Shown here in pieces: positions 12,282-18,388 of a stretch of 36,228 nt of DNA (position 1 is its first letter; every line of letters begins with the position of its first letter). The position numbers were made by a program, and so were the translations under genes. Below the pieces are notes generated by a model. It made no database searches. It saw nothing but the letters and a program-made list of their open reading frames with translations, and was not told the DNA's origin. Source of the DNA: a virus. The DNA lies in UHGV virus genome UHGV-0248752; one strand, 5' to 3'.

Positions 12282-12573
12282 AGATTATGTCGTGCCGATC
12301 CTGTCGGCAACGGCCACAGCCGGGGGGATCTTCATGGCGCTGATGCGCAAAACCTTTGTCCCCCGCGAGGCCTTTGAAAAACTCTCCGACCGGGTTGAGC
12401 GGGTGGAGAGCCGGATTTCCGGCCTGCCCACGCAGCAGGAGGTGAACAGACTCAATATCGAAATCACCACCCTGCGCGGTGAGCTTAAGGCCACCAATGC
12501 CACCCTGAAATCCGTCTCCCATCAGAACGAACTGCTGCTGGAGCAGGCTGTAAGGAAAAAACACAATGAGTGA
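12262..12573 (+). CDS. Membrane-anchored coiled-coil protein (Mu gp25 position), possibly lysis-associated
   Basis: 103 aa with one N-terminal TM helix VVPILSATATAGGIFMALM, then a coiled coil. Role unknown. Confidence 0.6.
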   Translation: MWVSIVKDYVVPILSATATAGGIFMALMRKTFVPREAFEKLSDRVERVESRISGLPTQQEVNRLNIEITTLRGELKATNATLKSVSHQNELLLEQAVRKKHNE

Positions 12574-12856
12574 TTTCATTACTGAAGATCAGCGTCTTGT
12601 CATTCTGCGGTCGCTGGCGGATTACAACGGCGAACTGGGCGAATCCGTGCTTCAGGACTGCCTGGATGATTACGGTCACCGCGTGTCCCGCGACACCGTT
12701 CATACCCACATTGCCTGGCTTGCCGAGCAGGGACTGGTGCGTAAGCGCACGCTTGTTAACGGTTATTTCATCGCTGAACTGACCGGCCGGGGTCAGGATG
12801 TGGCGGAAGGCCGCGCCACCGTTCCGGGTGTGAAGAAACCACGCGCAAGGGGGTAA
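12566..12856 (+). CDS. Hypothetical protein (Mu gp26 position)
   Basis: 96-aa ORF with RBS aaggaaaaaac upstream of its ATG, lying immediately before the small terminase gene. Confidence 0.6.
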   Translation: MSDFITEDQRLVILRSLADYNGELGESVLQDCLDDYGHRVSRDTVHTHIAWLAEQGLVRKRTLVNGYFIAELTGRGQDVAEGRATVPGVKKPRARG

Positions 12857-12858
12857 CG

Positions 12859-13440
12859 ATGGATAAGCCAACGCGTGGCCGTGTACGCAAGGTGGATTTG
12901 CTCCCCGACAGCATCCGTAAGCCGCTGCTGGAAATGCTGCGTGAAAAACGTCTGACGCAGGTCCAGATCCGCGAGGAAATCAACCGTCTGATCCGTGAAG
13001 CAGGTCTGCCGGAAGAGCAGCAGCTCTCACCGGCGGCCATCAGCCGGGAAGCCTCCCGTAATGAGCTGATTGCCCGTAATCTGCGTGATTTACGCGAGCA
13101 GACAAAAGCCATGATGGCCGAACTGGGGGATAAGCCGACCGGTGAAACCACGGCACTGATTCTGGAGATGTCCCGTGCCCTGATGTACCGCCGTCTGCGT
13201 GCCGCCACCGAATCCCTGAACAGCGACAGCGATGTGGATATGCGCCTTATTAAGGACATCCTCCTGTCGGCACAGCGTGCAGAAAGTGCCGCCGAGCGCA
13301 GCATTAAGCGTGAAAAAGAAATCCGGGCCGCATTTGCTGAAGAGATGGCGAATGCGGTCACCGATGAGTTGCGCGGCGTGGATGGCATGAGCGAGCAGAT
13401 CGAATTCCGTATCAGGCAGATGCTGCTGGGTAAGGCGTAG
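12859..13440 (+). CDS. Terminase small subunit (Mu gp27-like)
   Basis: 193 aa, highly charged and helical, immediately upstream of the large terminase. Position and composition as in Mu gp27. Confidence 0.7.
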   Translation: MDKPTRGRVRKVDLLPDSIRKPLLEMLREKRLTQVQIREEINRLIREAGLPEEQQLSPAAISREASRNELIARNLRDLREQTKAMMAELGDKPTGETTALILEMSRALMYRRLRAATESLNSDSDVDMRLIKDILLSAQRAESAAERSIKREKEIRAAFAEEMANAVTDELRGVDGMSEQIEFRIRQMLLGKA

Positions 13441-13450
13441 GAGGTGAATC

Positions 13451-13699
13451 ATGGCAACAGATAACCGCTCACTGATGAGCAGTGCCCATCAGAAAGCATT
13501 CAGTCTTGCAACACAGTTACCTCCTGAAACCATAAAGGTATGTCGTGAGTTGACTGAACTCAGCATTGCCGGGGAAATATCCCTGGAACAACTGCATTCG
13601 CTGCTGGCAGAGGCTGCCACTGATGAGTTGAGCGGCGTGGACGTGATGACTGAAGAGCTTGAGTCCCGAATCAAAAGCATTCTGACAGGTAAAGCATGA
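13451..13699 (+). CDS. Small protein duplicating the C-terminus of the small terminase
   Basis: 82 aa with RBS ggaggtga. C-terminus ATDELSGVDVMTEELESRIKSILTGKA parallels the small-terminase C-terminus VTDELRGVDGMSEQIEFRIRQMLLGKA. Confidence 0.55.
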   Translation: MATDNRSLMSSAHQKAFSLATQLPPETIKVCRELTELSIAGEISLEQLHSLLAEAATDELSGVDVMTEELESRIKSILTGKA

Positions 13700-15363
13700 T
13701 GAACAAAGCCAGAGAAACGTCGCCTTCACTGATGCAAATGACGCCTCCCCGCAAAATTGATCTGTCAGGTGAAAAAGCCCTGCTGGGCGTGGATGTGCCG
13801 GACAGCCTTGATTTGCCCGGTGATATGCCGGTGTTTCTGGATTATCAGGCCCGCTGGTTTGCAGATGAAAGTCAGGTCTGCATCGCGGAGAAATCCCGCC
13901 GCACCGGTCTTACCTGGGCGGAAGCCGGGCGTAACGTCATTACTGCTGCAAAACCGAAGCGTCGTGGTGGCCGCAATGTGTTTTATGTGGGATCAAAGCA
14001 GGAGATGGCGCTGGAATATATTTCTGCCTGCGCGCTGTTCTCCCGTGCCTTTAACCAGCTGGCAGATGCTGATGTGTATGAGCAGACATTCTGGGATCGG
14101 GATAAAAAAGAAGAAATTTTGACCTACATGATCCGCTTTCCGAACAGTGGATTCAAAATTCAGGCATTGTCTTCCCGTCCGTCAAACCTGCGCGGCCTTC
14201 AGGGGGATGTGGTGATTGATGAAGCCGCGTTCCACGAGTCACTGGATGAGCTTCTCAAGGCGGCAATGGCGCTCACTATGTGGGGCGCGCGCGTGCGTAT
14301 TATCTCCACGCATAACGGCGTCGATAATCTGTTTAATCAGTACATTCAGGAAGCCCGCGAGGGGCGCAAGGATTACAGCGTCCACCGCATAACCCTGGAT
14401 GATGCCATTGCGGACGGGCTGTACCGTCGTATCTGTTACGTCACCGATCAGGAATGGTCACCGGAAAGCGAGCAGAAATGGCGTGATGATCTCTACAAAA
14501 ACGCCCCGACCCGTGAGGATGCCGACGAGGAATACGGCTGTATCCCGAAAAAATCCGGCGGTGCCTATATCCCCCACGCGCTTATTGAAATGGCGATGAT
14601 CCGCGACATCCCGATTCTGACGTTTGAAGCCCCGGACAACTTCATCAGCCGTGCCGCATGGCTGCGTGAATCGGAAGTTTTAACCTGGTGTGAAGAACAT
14701 TTAAAACCGCTTTTAGAGAAATTAAATCCCCGTTCCCGCTTCAGCTTCGGGGAAGACTTTGCCCGCACCGGTGACCTGTCCTGCTTTGTGCTGCTGGAAA
14801 TCACCGAATCCCTGGCAAAGCGCGAGGTGTTTCGCGTGGAGCTGCGCAACCTGCCGTATGCCCAGCAGGAACAGGTGATGATGTACATCCTGACCCGCGT
14901 TCCGGCGCTGGTCGGTGCGGCGTTCGACGCCACCGGTAACGGCGGCTATCTGGCAGAGGCCGCACTGCTGGCCTTTGGCCCGGATATCATCGACTGCGTG
15001 ATGTTGTCGCCGAAGTGGTACGGCGAGTGGATGCCAAAACTGAAAGCCGAGTTTGAAGATCAGAATATCCTCGTCGCCCGCCATCAGACCACGCTTGATG
15101 ATTTGCGCCATGTGAAGGTAGTGAATGGTATCCCGCAAATCGACAAGGGGCGCACGAAGGACCAGAACGCAACGGCTGCGAACGCCCGCCGCCATGGTGA
15201 TTTTGCCGTGGCGCTCTGTATGGCAAACCGGGCGTCATACATGGAGGGCTTCATCCTGGATGAATCAGCCTGTCAGGCGCTACCGGAGCGGTCGCGGGCA
15301 ATGGAGGGCGGTTATCGTGATGACGATGAGGCATATCATGAATTTGATCGGGGGGGCTGGTAG
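13696..15363 (+). CDS. Terminase large subunit (Mu gp28-like)
   Basis: 555 aa, directly upstream of the portal gene and overlapping it by one base. Size and position match Mu gp28. No motif-level check was possible. Confidence 0.85.
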   Translation: MMNKARETSPSLMQMTPPRKIDLSGEKALLGVDVPDSLDLPGDMPVFLDYQARWFADESQVCIAEKSRRTGLTWAEAGRNVITAAKPKRRGGRNVFYVGSKQEMALEYISACALFSRAFNQLADADVYEQTFWDRDKKEEILTYMIRFPNSGFKIQALSSRPSNLRGLQGDVVIDEAAFHESLDELLKAAMALTMWGARVRIISTHNGVDNLFNQYIQEAREGRKDYSVHRITLDDAIADGLYRRICYVTDQEWSPESEQKWRDDLYKNAPTREDADEEYGCIPKKSGGAYIPHALIEMAMIRDIPILTFEAPDNFISRAAWLRESEVLTWCEEHLKPLLEKLNPRSRFSFGEDFARTGDLSCFVLLEITESLAKREVFRVELRNLPYAQQEQVMMYILTRVPALVGAAFDATGNGGYLAEAALLAFGPDIIDCVMLSPKWYGEWMPKLKAEFEDQNILVARHQTTLDDLRHVKVVNGIPQIDKGRTKDQNATAANARRHGDFAVALCMANRASYMEGFILDESACQALPERSRAMEGGYRDDDEAYHEFDRGGW

Positions 15364-16952: not shown

Positions 16953-18267
16953 TTTAGGTTATGCCGCCACGCTTCCCTCAAAAGAGGCGGTAGCATACTT
17001 CCGTGTCAAAGGGGCGCATATCAGCTGGAACTGGTTCGAAACAGCCGCGGATGTTCATGCCCGCTCATTCACGGCAGCAAAAGCGGCACGCCTGGATGTG
17101 GTGACCACGTTACAGGCCGAAGTGCAGCGGGCCATTGATGAGGGAATTTCACAGAAAGCATTTATCCGCACGCTGACGCCACGCCTGCAAAAGCTGGGAT
17201 GGTGGGGAAAGCAGATTGTGGTGGACAGCGACGGTAACGCGGAAGAAGTGCAACTGGGCAGTCCCCGTCGTCTGGCGCTGATTTACAACGTGAACACCCG
17301 TGTGGCTTACAATGCCGGGCGTTACACGCAGATGATGAACAACACGGACACGCATCCGTTCTGGCAGTATGTGGCGGTCATGGACAGCCGTACCCGCCCG
17401 TCGCATTCCGCCCTTAACGGTCTGGTATTCCGCTATGACGATCCGTTCTGGAAAACACACTACCCACCTAATGGCTGGAACTGCCGCTGCCGTGTGCGGC
17501 CATTGTCTCAGGCTCGTCTGGATGCAATGGGGTTATCCGTTTCATCCGGTGAGGATCATCTCTCCACCCGCAATGTTGAGGCTGGCGTGGATAAACAGAC
17601 CGGAGAAGTCAGAGAAATGCCGGTGACCACATATTCAGATGGCACCAGAACCATGACACCGGATGTGGGCTGGTCATATAACCCCGGCTCGGCAGCGTTC
17701 GGCACAGACCAGGCGCTGATCCGCAAACTGATCGAGGTGAAAAGCCCGGCGTTACGGGAAATGGTGGTTCAGGAGATGAACAACAGCCCGGAGCGGCAGC
17801 TGGCGTTCCGCATCTGGGCAAAAAACATCATGCAGACCCGGCGAGGTGGTAACGATATCCGCACGCTGGGCTTTATGACTGAAAGCATTGCGCAGGCAGT
17901 GGAAAGCCGGACGGGAACGCCACCGGCCCGCCTGCTGGCGATGAGCGGTAAAAATGTGCTCCATGCAGACAGTGTGAAACATCAGAATGACGGCATCGCC
18001 CTGATGCCAGAGGACTTCGGGCGCTTACCGGCAATGCTGGCAAAGCCAAAAGCGGTGCTGTGGGACAAACGGCACAAAAATCTGATGTATATCGTGGAAA
18101 ATAAGGATGGCAGTGTGCAGATTGCCGTTAATGCACCGTACAGTCTGAAACGTCAGCCCGACAAACTGGATGTGATTGTGAATGCTTACCGGGTTATCAA
18201 TATGGATAAGCTGAAATCGGATATCCGGGGCGGAATGCTTGAGGTGCTGGAAGGACAAATTGATTAA
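16936..18267 (+). CDS. Head morphogenesis protein (Mu F / gp30-like)
   Basis: 443 aa. Contains the Mu F-type motif PFWQYVAVMDSRTRPSHSALNGLVFRYDDPFW...NGWNCRCRV. Confidence 0.85.
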   Translation: MTQGIDLGYAATLPSKEAVAYFRVKGAHISWNWFETAADVHARSFTAAKAARLDVVTTLQAEVQRAIDEGISQKAFIRTLTPRLQKLGWWGKQIVVDSDGNAEEVQLGSPRRLALIYNVNTRVAYNAGRYTQMMNNTDTHPFWQYVAVMDSRTRPSHSALNGLVFRYDDPFWKTHYPPNGWNCRCRVRPLSQARLDAMGLSVSSGEDHLSTRNVEAGVDKQTGEVREMPVTTYSDGTRTMTPDVGWSYNPGSAAFGTDQALIRKLIEVKSPALREMVVQEMNNSPERQLAFRIWAKNIMQTRRGGNDIRTLGFMTESIAQAVESRTGTPPARLLAMSGKNVLHADSVKHQNDGIALMPEDFGRLPAMLAKPKAVLWDKRHKNLMYIVENKDGSVQIAVNAPYSLKRQPDKLDVIVNAYRVINMDKLKSDIRGGMLEVLEGQID

Positions 18268-18388
18268 CGGTCAGTGGCGGGGGTCGAACCCGCATACATG
18301 ATCCACCCGGAGGCAGGCACCGACTTTACCAGTTAAGCGTACACTGACCGCCTGTTTATTTTATATTCATCCTTTATGCGGAGGCAAT

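What the first reader, a model, noticed from the sequence alone, without database searches (positions are those of the whole stretch)
13300..13699. Small ORF downstream of the small terminase duplicates its C-terminal 27 residues
The 82-aa ORF at 13451-13699 ends in ATDELSGVDVMTEELESRIKSILTGKA, paralleling the small-terminase C-terminus VTDELRGVDGMSEQIEFRIRQMLLGKA. It has its own RBS and its stop overlaps the large terminase start. Since the small-subunit C-terminus usually contacts the large terminase, this could be a competitor or adaptor, or a remnant of a partial duplication.
Basis: seen in the sequence. Interest (0 to 1): 0.45.

Follow-up and report, generated by a model that had tools for sequence, protein, structure and literature searches.

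The report
Small ORF carrying a borrowed terminase tail
An 82-residue gene between the two DNA-packaging (terminase) genes of an E. coli Mu-like prophage really does end in a copy of the small terminase's conserved tail. It looks like a patchwork made by recombination between related phages: weakly constrained, missing from about 90% of sibling prophages, and of modest interest.

Summary
ORF82 (13451-13699) ends in a 27-31 residue copy of the gp27 small-terminase (TerS) tail (BLASTP E=3e-10; profile-profile P=7.5e-10). It has a strong ribosome-binding site, and its stop overlaps the large-terminase (TerL) start (TGATG).

It is probably not a simple local duplication. Residues 1-55 appear homologous (moderate support) to small tail-less proteins at the same position in Salmonella/Citrobacter Mu-like prophages. 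They are clearly related to a 67-aa tail-less variant in a metagenomic contig. At the DNA level the tail is closer to the gp27 tail of the ORF-less E. coli prophage type (77-81%) than to the adjacent gp27 tail (67%). Divergence from ORF-less siblings is confined to about 13398-13755.

The best reading is a recombination chimera at a variable terS/terL junction. Only 25 of 235 prophage-carrying complete E. coli genomes have it. Mu and the Vibrio, Pseudomonas and Shewanella relatives inspected have no gene there.

ORF82 polymorphism is not distinguishable from neutral (26 nonsynonymous, 17 synonymous; p=0.11). The adjacent gp27 tail shows 0 nonsynonymous and 10 synonymous changes. A role as a TerL-binding competitor or adaptor is not excluded, but nothing here supports it.

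The parts
12859..13440 (+). gp27, the small terminase subunit (TerS), 193 aa
   Evidence: PF11985 Phage_Mu_Gp27, E=3.1e-33. phrog_426 terminase small subunit, E=8.6e-55. 57% identical to Mu gp27. pN/pS 0.01 among ORF82-bearing loci.
13345..13437 (+). gp27 C-terminal tail (aa 163-193), the first copy of the repeat
   Evidence: The most conserved segment of the gp27 family across E. coli, Salmonella, Mu and Vibrio. Among ORF82-bearing loci it shows 10 synonymous and 0 nonsynonymous changes. The part from about 13398 onward (IEFRIRQMLLGKA) belongs to the divergent block.
13439..13444 (+). Shine-Dalgarno sequence AGGAGG for ORF82, overlapping the gp27 stop TAG
   Evidence: Read directly from the sequence. 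AGGAGG is kept in 14 of the 15 ORF82-bearing loci examined and in types 3 and 4; L024 reads AAGAGG because its gp27 stop is TAA. It is kept where the ORF82 start codon is GTG.
13451..13699 (+). ORF82, an 82-aa chimeric small protein (PGAP: WP_000179787.1, hypothetical protein)
   Evidence: phrog_30922, E=6.9e-52. Annotated as hypothetical in the 100% identical E. coli prophage. Homologues found only in E. coli and metagenomes.
13451..13615 (+). ORF82 core (aa 1-55), predicted as three helices
   Evidence: AF2 helices 4-21, 25-39 and 45-60. hhalign against the Salmonella/Citrobacter 65-aa family at the same position: P=3e-5, probability 73%, 47 columns. Matches the 67-aa P0132 over residues 1-56.
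13604..13696 (+). ORF82 tail (aa 52-82), the second and partly degenerate copy of the TerS tail
   Evidence: In 84-nt DNA comparisons it is 77-81% identical to the gp27 tail of the ORF-less type and 67% to the adjacent gp27 tail. Four of 15 gp27-invariant tail positions differ in the window's copy (V167A, G176V, S178T, L190T), plus R172S; V167 is retained in other ORF82 forms. AF2 shows a low-confidence linker at 61-67 followed by a helix at 68-79.
13697..13701 (+). TGATG stop/start overlap between ORF82 and TerL
   Evidence: The ORF-less prophages have the same junction between gp27 and TerL.
13699..15363 (+). TerL, the large terminase subunit (Mu gp28-like), 554 aa from ATG 13699
   Evidence: phrog_2 terminase large subunit, E=5.7e-43. 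PGAP start as. pN/pS 0.08 for residues 20-555.
13699..13755 (+). Hypervariable TerL N-terminus (first ~19 codons)
   Evidence: 35% nucleotide divergence from the ORF-less type, against a 2-5% background. pN/pS 0.94. At least four different N-termini occur among the junction types.
13398..13755 (+). Divergent mosaic block that separates ORF82-bearing from ORF-less prophages
   Evidence: Sliding-window divergence and alignment.

Best explanation
ORF82 is a chimeric accessory gene made by recombination at a variable junction between the small (gp27) and large terminase genes of enterobacterial Mu-like prophages.

Origin (largely shown, direction inferred):
- Residues 1-55 are the three-helix core of a small, fast-evolving protein family. 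The same family sits at this position, without a tail, in Salmonella/Citrobacter prophages and in a metagenomic variant (type 3).
- Residues 56-82 are the 3' end of a gp27 gene from a different lineage, one resembling the ORF-less type.
- That 3' end arrived together with the TGATG junction and the first ~15 codons of TerL.

How it most likely works (inferred):
- It is transcribed with the late genes and translated from its own AGGAGG site.
- Its termination at TGATG places ribosomes at the TerL start, as gp27 termination does in ORF-less phages.
- The product is a small helical protein with a flexible, partly degenerate TerS-like tail that may still touch TerL.
- It is dispensable for packaging. 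The resident gp27 keeps a fully constrained tail and remains the working small terminase.
For: 1. The window is an E. coli Mu-like prophage. The searched 2-kb stretch (12500-14500) is 100% identical to NZ_CP189662, whose annotation shows a Mu-like prophage.

2. Distribution. The ORF82-specific DNA is in 25 of 5426 complete E. coli genomes. The prophage region is in 235. The others are exactly 259 nt shorter, with gp27 overlapping TerL by TGATG.

3. Localised divergence. ORF82-bearing and ORF-less prophages differ by only 2-5% on both sides, the same as within each group. They differ by 12-35% only between about 13398 and 13755.

4. Nearest relative of the tail. Over 84 nt, the ORF82 tail is 65-68/84 identical to the ORF-less type's gp27 tail and 56/84 to its own neighbour.

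5. The core pre-exists without a tail.
- L011 has the identical gp27, the same TAGGAGGTGAATCATG junction, and a 67-aa homologue of ORF82 residues 1-56 with no TerS tail. A 120-nt gap and a third TerL N-terminus follow.
- Salmonella/Citrobacter prophages carry a 65-aa ORF at the same place. hhalign against the ORF82 family gives P=3e-5, probability 73%; phrog_30922 hits it at E=0.007.

6. Mosaic TerL start. The TerL N-terminus of the ORF82 type resembles the ORF-less type for about 14 residues (MNKARETSPSLMQM against MNNAEELSPLLTNT). It then resembles type 3 (PPRKIDLSGEK).

7. No gene between gp27 and TerL in Mu, the Vibrio phage, Pseudomonas JBD25 or Shewanella MuM16-1.

8. Selection.
- gp27 tail: 0 nonsynonymous, 10 synonymous changes (p=4e-6 against neutral).
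- ORF82: 26 nonsynonymous, 17 synonymous (p=0.11).
- ORF82 against gp27: Fisher p=2e-9.
- Salmonella ORF65: omega 0.33, against 0.05-0.06 for its neighbours.

9. The tail has lost gp27-invariant residues. Some forms also change G173 to S, L to P, or A193 to V or S.

10. No sigma-70-like promoter lies nearby. In type 4 (L023, L028) the ORF is reduced to 9 codons whose stop still overlaps the TerL ATG.
Against: - The direction of events is not proven. The ORF-less type's gp27 tail looks like the 5' half of the window's gp27 tail joined to the 3' half of the ORF82 tail. That pattern also fits a deletion by unequal crossover in an ORF82-bearing ancestor.
- No donor phage with exactly the ORF82-type tail on a full gp27 was found.
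- The ORF is intact in all 15 loci examined, and its ribosome-binding site is conserved.
- The hydrophobic positions of the tail helix (L, I, I, L) and the acidic residues are kept, so some function of the tail is possible.
- With only 43 polymorphisms, the neutrality test has little power to exclude omega of about 0.3-0.5.
- Homology between the ORF82 core and the Salmonella family is moderate only (probability 73%).
- Translational coupling and late expression are inferred from sequence, not measured.
Confidence: 0.6

Rival explanations
1. ORF82 is a selected TerL-binding factor. Its TerS-like tail docks on the site of TerL that normally receives the gp27 tail. ORF82 would then act as a competitor that times or limits holoenzyme assembly, or as an adaptor that brings the three-helix core to the terminase.
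For: - The copied segment is the most conserved motif of the gp27 family. In other phages the TerS C-terminal region is the TerL-binding domain (PMC7617512; lambda in PMC6739421).
- The ORF is intact in 15 of 15 loci, and its ribosome-binding site is conserved (L024 has AAGAGG).
- 11 of 15 gp27-invariant tail positions are retained, including the helix hydrophobic positions.
- AF2 models the tail as a free helix on a flexible linker, as expected for a docking peptide.
- The derived tail substitutions (S, V, T, T) are fixed in all ORF82 forms. That could reflect a changed specificity.
Against: - It is absent from about 89% of otherwise near-identical prophages. Mu and the other Mu-like phages inspected have no gene between gp27 and TerL.
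- Homologues of the core lack the tail.
- Polymorphism is not distinguishable from neutral. It is significantly more nonsynonymous than in the adjacent gp27 tail (Fisher p=0.03 for the tails, 2e-9 overall).
- Some forms carry G173 to S, a helix-breaking L to P, in-frame deletions at the core-tail joint, or frameshifts.
- No interaction could be tested with these tools.
Confidence: 0.2
2. ORF82 arose in place, by a tandem duplication of about 259 nt covering the 3' end of gp27. The two copies then diverged, and the N-terminal 55 residues are duplicated sequence that has diverged beyond recognition or shifted frame.
For: - The length difference from ORF-less prophages is exactly one repeat period, 259 nt.
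- The two tails are in the same orientation and each is followed by a start codon.
- tblastn gives a weak match of ORF82 residues 3-46 to the TerL N-terminus, E=0.04.
Against: - The unique 170 nt show no significant DNA similarity to upstream gp27 or to the TerL 5' region (p=0.03-0.3 in shuffles).
- The core has tail-less homologues at the same position in other lineages.
- The tail is closer to another type's gp27 tail than to its neighbour.
- A 259-nt duplication (3n+1) would not put TerL's frame in frame with the second tail. This follows from the coordinates.
Confidence: 0.1
3. ORF82 encodes no functional protein. It is only a translated spacer, or a chance open frame, left by recombination. 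All that matters is that ribosomes reach the TGATG.
For: - Polymorphism is near neutral.
- The neighbouring TerL N-terminus is also unconstrained (pN/pS 0.94).
- Type 4 keeps only a 9-codon mini-ORF ending on the TerL start.
- Truncated and frameshifted forms exist in the protein database.
Against: - The core family is recognisable between E. coli and Salmonella at the same position. It has omega 0.33 at dS 0.54, which indicates some protein-level constraint.
- AF2 predicts a consistent three-helix core with pLDDT 77-86 over residues 21-50.
- In type 3, a 120-nt untranslated gap separates the ORF from TerL, so coupling is not required there.
Confidence: 0.1

Closest known systems
Phage Mu gp27 / PF11985 (Phage_Mu_Gp27, DUF3486), the small terminase subunit
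   Same: ORF82 residues 52-82 align with the conserved C-terminal tail (ELRGxDGMSExLExRIRxxLLGKA) of this family: P=7.5e-10, E=3e-10 against the neighbouring gp27.
   Different: ORF82 lacks the N-terminal and central ~160 residues, where TerS proteins in general carry their DNA-binding and oligomerisation domains (PMC7617512). It gives no PF11985 or phrog_426 hit. Four invariant tail residues are substituted. It is not a small terminase.
phrog_30922 (unknown function) and the tail-less 65-67-aa ORFs between gp27 and TerL in Salmonella/Citrobacter and metagenomic Mu-like prophages
   Same: Same genomic position and same three-helix core. Support: phrog_30922 E=6.9e-52 for ORF82; hhalign P=3e-5; P0132 E=1.2e-10. 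Similar fast evolution, with omega about 0.3-0.5.
   Different: Only the E. coli ORF82 form carries the TerS-like tail and the TGATG junction copied from a gp27/TerL boundary.
Proteins that interfere with or redirect the terminase by imitating part of TerS, e.g. Rpp of E. coli PICIs (PMC6739421)
   Same: A small protein carrying a piece that resembles part of TerS. In principle it could engage the packaging machinery.
   Different: Rpp imitates the TerS DNA-binding domain, forms heterodimers with TerS and is encoded by a satellite element (PMC6739421). ORF82 imitates the C-terminal tail, is encoded by the phage itself in its late operon, and has no demonstrated interaction or phenotype.
Mosaic junction genes ('morons' or ORFans) at module boundaries of temperate phages (general knowledge, not tested here)
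   Same: Presence/absence polymorphism among near-identical prophages. Sharp divergence boundaries, several alternative forms at one junction, and weak constraint.
   Different: No promoter or terminator of its own was detected by the scan. Part of the coding sequence is recycled from the neighbouring essential gene family.

Membership tests
PF11985 Phage_Mu_Gp27 (small terminase) | Full-length match to the family profile above the gathering score | tested here: not met
   hmmscan of ORF82 against Pfam returns no PF11985 hit at E<=0.1, while gp27 scores 116 bits. ORF82 also gives no phrog_426 hit.
PF11985 Phage_Mu_Gp27 (small terminase) | N-terminal and central regions of ~160 aa, where TerS proteins in general carry the DNA-binding and oligomerisation domains | tested here: not met
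   ORF82 is 82 aa. Residues 1-51 show no similarity to gp27. hhalign aligns only residues 52-82.
PF11985 Phage_Mu_Gp27 (small terminase) | Conserved C-terminal tail motif ELRGxDG[MI]SExLExRIRxxLLGKA | tested here: inconclusive
   The tail is clearly homologous. However, 4 of 15 family-invariant positions are changed in the window's copy (V167A, G176V, S178T, L190T), plus R172S; V167 is retained in other ORF82 forms.
phrog_30922 (unknown function) | Full-length profile match | tested here: met
   E=6.9e-52, residues 2-82 on profile positions 2-82 of 82.
Small ORF family between gp27 and TerL of enterobacterial Mu-like prophages (defined here: A4, P0132) | Position between gp27 and TerL, plus a homologous ~55-aa helical core | tested here: met
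   Same position in L011, L017, L040 and L043. hhalign P=3e-5, probability 73%. HMMER E=1.2e-10 to P0132. Support for the Salmonella branch is moderate.
TerS-imitating packaging hijackers (Rpp of PICIs) | Encoded by a satellite element; imitates the TerS DNA-binding domain and forms heterodimers with TerS | tested here: not met
   ORF82 lies in the prophage's own late operon between terS and terL. Its similarity to TerS is limited to the C-terminal tail. Sequence comparison with Rpp itself was not done.
TerL-binding peptide or decoy (hypothetical class) | Physical binding of the tail to TerL | not testable with these tools
   Only single-chain structure prediction was available. No complex prediction or experiment was possible.

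The most novel reading that the evidence does not exclude
ORF82 is a phage-encoded imitation of the small-terminase C-terminal tail that docks on the large terminase. On this reading it tunes when or how TerL joins gp27, or blocks the terminase of co-resident or superinfecting Mu-like phages of the ORF-less type, whose gp27 tail it resembles most closely. That would be a natural peptide decoy for a viral packaging motor, made by gene fusion.
Probability: 0.15. Interest if true: 0.6.

Novelty: new member of a known kind. Interest (0 to 1): 0.3.

Why it matters
If it is only a recombination chimera, its value is as a clear example of how phage mosaicism recycles a piece of an essential gene. Here that piece is the TerS tail together with the TerL translation start. 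It also marks the terS/terL boundary of enterobacterial Mu-like prophages as a junction with at least four alternative forms. A practical result for annotation is that the 82-aa protein should not be called a small terminase.

If the tail still binds TerL, ORF82 would be a natural reagent for two purposes. It could also serve as a model for peptide inhibitors of packaging motors.

Tried and rejected
- Origin of the N-terminal 51 residues inside the window. blastn-short and tblastn of the unique part against the whole window found only chance-level matches. The best was ORF82 residues 3-46 against the TerL N-terminus at E=0.04. Local DNA alignments to the TerL 5' region and to upstream gp27 were not significant against shuffles (p=0.03-0.3). 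The idea of a TerL-N::tail fusion by a 259-nt duplication was dropped, also because the reading frames do not fit.\n\n- Deep homologues. An exhaustive HMMER search of the ORF82 profile against 1.84 billion representative proteins gave only 4 hits, all from the same locus family. Pfam gave nothing.\n\n- Fold. Two AF2 models (pLDDT 69.7 and 69.4) gave no Foldseek match with E<0.5 in PDB or BFVD.\n\n- Species-representative genomes. The scan returned only 2 loci.\n\n- A vestigial TerS tail in the other small ORFs (L042 87-aa, L017/L040 65-aa, L011 67-aa). DNA alignments were not significant (p=0.06-0.98), and hhalign of the 87-aa ORF against gp27 found no tail match. Rejected.\n\n- A naturally split TerS in Pseudomonas and Shewanella phages, suggested by matches that covered two annotated features. 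The annotation shows only small overlaps with neighbouring genes. Rejected.\n\n- A gp27-ORF82 fusion by frameshifting. An in-frame TGA (13445-13447) lies immediately upstream of the ORF82 ATG in its own frame. Rejected.\n\n- An own promoter for ORF82. None was found.\n\n- Co-adaptation of the TerL N-terminus with the tail. Not supported: the TerL N-terminus evolves neutrally (pN/pS 0.94), and an identical gp27 occurs with three different TerL N-termini.
Full report
**What the window is**

The searched 2-kb stretch of the window (12500-14500) is 100% identical to the chromosome of E. coli strain 102651. The annotation there shows a Mu-like prophage: Mu-type transposase, Mor, lysis genes, DUF2730, gp26-like, gp27, large terminase, Mu portal, MuF and so on. 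gp27 (12859-13440) matches PF11985 (Phage_Mu_Gp27) and phrog_426 (terminase small subunit, TerS). The 555-aa ORF after the finding matches phrog_2 (terminase large subunit, TerL). gp27 is 57% identical to Mu gp27.

**Check of the observation**

- BLASTP aligns gp27 163-193 with ORF82 52-82: 18/31 identical, E=3e-10.
- hhalign of the ORF82 family against a gp27 family alignment that includes Mu and a Vibrio phage aligns the same residues: P=7.5e-10.
- DNA identity of the two tails is 63/96.
- Nothing outside the tail is similar.
- AGGAGG lies 6 nt before the ORF82 ATG, and the ORF82 stop overlaps the TerL start as TGATG.

**Distribution**

- The 2-kb region around the finding is present in 235 of 5426 complete E. 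coli genomes.
- The ORF82-specific DNA is present in only 25 of them, at 29 places.
- The other prophages are exactly 259 nt shorter. In them a 193-aa gp27 ending ...GMSEQLESRIKGILLGKA overlaps TerL by TGATG.
- Protein searches find ORF82 homologues only in E. coli and metagenomes: 11 clusters in a word-indexed search of 5.8 billion proteins, and 4 representatives in an exhaustive HMMER scan of 1.84 billion.
- Mu, a Vibrio Mu-like phage, Pseudomonas JBD25 and Shewanella MuM16-1 have gp27 directly next to TerL.

**Anatomy of the difference**

I aligned six ORF82-bearing and four ORF-less loci.
- On both sides the two groups differ by 2-5%, no more than members within each group.
- Divergence is confined to about 13398-13755: the last 13 codons of gp27, ORF82, and the first ~19 codons of TerL (35% nucleotide divergence).
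- This is a small mosaic block in an otherwise freely recombining prophage population.

**Other forms of the same junction**

The junction has at least four forms.
- *Type 1 (ORF-less).* gp27 overlaps TerL directly. This is the majority form.
- *Type 2.* The ORF82-bearing form in the window.
- *Type 3.* A metagenomic contig (L011) has an identical gp27 and the identical TAGGAGGTGAATCATG junction. A 67-aa ORF follows whose residues 1-60 match ORF82 residues 1-56, but it has no TerS tail. Then come a 120-nt gap and a third TerL N-terminus.
- *Type 4.* Two IMG/VR contigs (L023, L028) keep only a 9-codon mini-ORF whose stop overlaps the TerL ATG.

Citrobacter and Salmonella relatives (L017, L040, L043) carry a 65-aa ORF at the same place, and L042 has an 87-aa variant. 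The 65-aa family has 16 clusters, the named ones Salmonella. It aligns with the ORF82 core over 47 columns: hhalign P=3e-5, probability 73%. It also hits phrog_30922 at E=0.007. So the first ~55 residues of ORF82 appear to belong to a small-protein family native to this position. Support for the Salmonella branch is moderate. Only the E. coli ORF82 form has the extra tail.

**Where the tail came from**

- Over the last 84 nt, the ORF82 tail is 67% identical to the adjacent gp27 tail. It is 77-81% identical to the gp27 tail of the ORF-less type, and 58-70% to the Salmonella, Citrobacter, Vibrio and Mu tails.
- The TerL N-terminus downstream (MNKARETSPSLMQM) has the length and pattern of the ORF-less type (MNNAEELSPLLTNT). 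From PPRKIDLSGEK onward it matches type 3.
- The simplest reading is that a type-3-like junction received a patch of about 130 nt from a diverged ORF-less-type phage. The patch carried the gp27 tail, the TGATG and TerL codons 1-15. This fused the resident small ORF in frame to a foreign gp27 3' end.
- The direction is not proven. The ORF-less gp27 tail also looks like the gp27 5' half joined to the ORF82 3' half, as a deletion by unequal crossover would produce.
- An origin by simple tandem duplication in place is disfavoured. The unique part resembles neither gp27 nor TerL, and the frames of a 259-nt duplication do not fit.

**Constraint**

Figures are pN/pS among the 14 ORF82-bearing loci with a complete TerL, followed by counts of changes and the p-value against neutral expectation.

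| Segment | pN/pS | Nonsynonymous / synonymous | p against neutral |
|---|---|---|---|
| gp27 residues 1-162 | 0.01 | 1 / 32 | 2e-14 |
| gp27 tail | 0.00 | 0 / 10 | 4e-6 |
| ORF82 core | 0.46 | 21 / 12 | 0.25 |
| ORF82 tail | 0.33 | 5 / 5 | 0.18 |
| ORF82 whole | – | 26 / 17 | 0.11 |
| TerL residues 2-19 | 0.94 | 5 / 2 | 0.65 |
| TerL residues 20 onward | 0.08 | 24 / 79 | 6e-22 |

- ORF82 as a whole is not distinguishable from the neutral expectation of 70% nonsynonymous.
- It differs from gp27 at Fisher p=2e-9. The two tails differ at p=0.03.
- The gp27 protein is identical (WP_000360580.1) in the window's prophage and four of the five other E. coli ORF82-bearing genomes inspected, while the ORF82 protein differs in every one.
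- At greater depth, the Salmonella 65-aa ORF has omega 0.33, against 0.05-0.06 for its neighbours. The family is a real gene, but only weakly constrained.
- The gp27 tail is the most conserved part of the gp27 family. The ORF82 copy has lost four of 15 invariant positions (V167A, G176V, S178T, L190T) plus R172S.
- Some ORF82 forms add G173 to S, L to P, in-frame deletions at the joint, or frameshifts.
- The resident gp27 therefore remains the constrained small terminase, and the ORF82 tail is drifting.

**Structure and expression**

- AF2 predicts three helices (4-21, 25-39, 45-60), a low-confidence linker (61-67) and a short C-terminal helix (68-79). Mean pLDDT is 69-70.
- No fold match reached significance.
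- No sigma-70-like promoter lies nearby, so expression with the late operon is inferred.
- The GGTAAAGC codons of the tail (G-K-A) lie 5-8 nt upstream of the TerL ATG and look like its weak ribosome-binding site. The tail end therefore doubles as the TerL translation start region. This is read from the sequence, and the function is inferred.

**Mechanism**

- Most likely (confidence about 0.6), ORF82 is a recombination chimera that is translated late. Its termination hands ribosomes to TerL. Its product is a dispensable small helical protein with a partly degenerate TerS-like tail.
It rests on general knowledge that the TerS C-terminal region binds TerL (PMC7617512; lambda in PMC6739421), and the tools offered no interaction test.
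- A tandem duplication in place (about 0.1) and a purely non-functional translated spacer (about 0.1) are the other rivals.

**Comparison with what is known**

- ORF82 is a member of phrog_30922 (unknown function).
- It is not a member of PF11985, since it fails the profile match and lacks the domains ahead of the tail.
- It resembles TerS-imitating hijackers such as Rpp only loosely. Rpp imitates the DNA-binding domain and is encoded by a satellite element (PMC6739421).
- The two literature searches I ran turned up no paper describing this ORF or a TerS-tail-bearing small protein. That is a negative from a limited library.

**Verdict**

The feature is real and the repeat is statistically solid. 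It is best explained as a mosaic-junction chimera with weak constraint. Interest is modest at 0.3. The unexcluded decoy reading has a probability of about 0.15 and would be moderately interesting if true.

Noticed in passing
window 13370-13384, 13629-13643, 13781-13795: A 15-nt motif (TGCGCGGCGTGGATG and two copies at 87% identity) occurs three times: in the gp27 tail, in the ORF82 tail, and in TerL codons ~28-32. At protein level, TerL LLGVDV resembles the tail's L[RS]GVD[GV]. LLGVD is conserved in TerL of the Mu and Citrobacter-type relatives examined. This may be chance or an old internal similarity.
   Followed up: no
window 13699-13755 and loci L001, L011, L017, L023: The first 12-24 residues of TerL are hypervariable. 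At least four unrelated or highly diverged N-termini converge on the shared motif [PT][PR]RKIDL. pN/pS is 0.94 within the ORF82-bearing group.
   Followed up: partly
L023 3582-3625 and L028 (IMG/VR contigs): A fourth form of the junction. The small ORF is deleted after 11 nt, leaving a 9-codon mini-ORF (MATDWFSYE*) with the same ribosome-binding site. Its stop overlaps the TerL ATG.
   Followed up: partly
window 13451 and the equivalent position in L004, L005, L019, L021, L025-L027: The ORF82 start codon is ATG in some prophages and GTG in others, with the AGGAGG site unchanged.
   Followed up: no
window ~18261-18348, minus strand (= L002 23762-23849): PGAP annotates a 'tRNA-OTHER' between the MuF-like gene and the virion morphogenesis gene of the prophage in strain 102651. 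ARAGORN finds no tRNA or tmRNA anywhere in the window.
   Followed up: partly
window 12379-12498 (inside the DUF2730 gene): A second local peak of divergence, 10-22%, seen both within and between the ORF82-bearing and ORF-less groups. It indicates another mosaic patch unrelated to ORF82.
   Followed up: no
L017 3590-3787 (Citrobacter braakii prophage): The 65-aa ORF between gp27 and TerL hits phrog_220 ('minor head protein and DNA pilot') at profile positions 917-974 of 1338, E=2.5e-5. A related domain may therefore occur inside large head proteins of other phages.
   Followed up: no
P0013 (Logan contig, 291 aa): In one assembly the gp26-like protein and gp27 are fused into a single 291-aa ORF. 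This could be a sequencing error or a real fusion.
   Followed up: no
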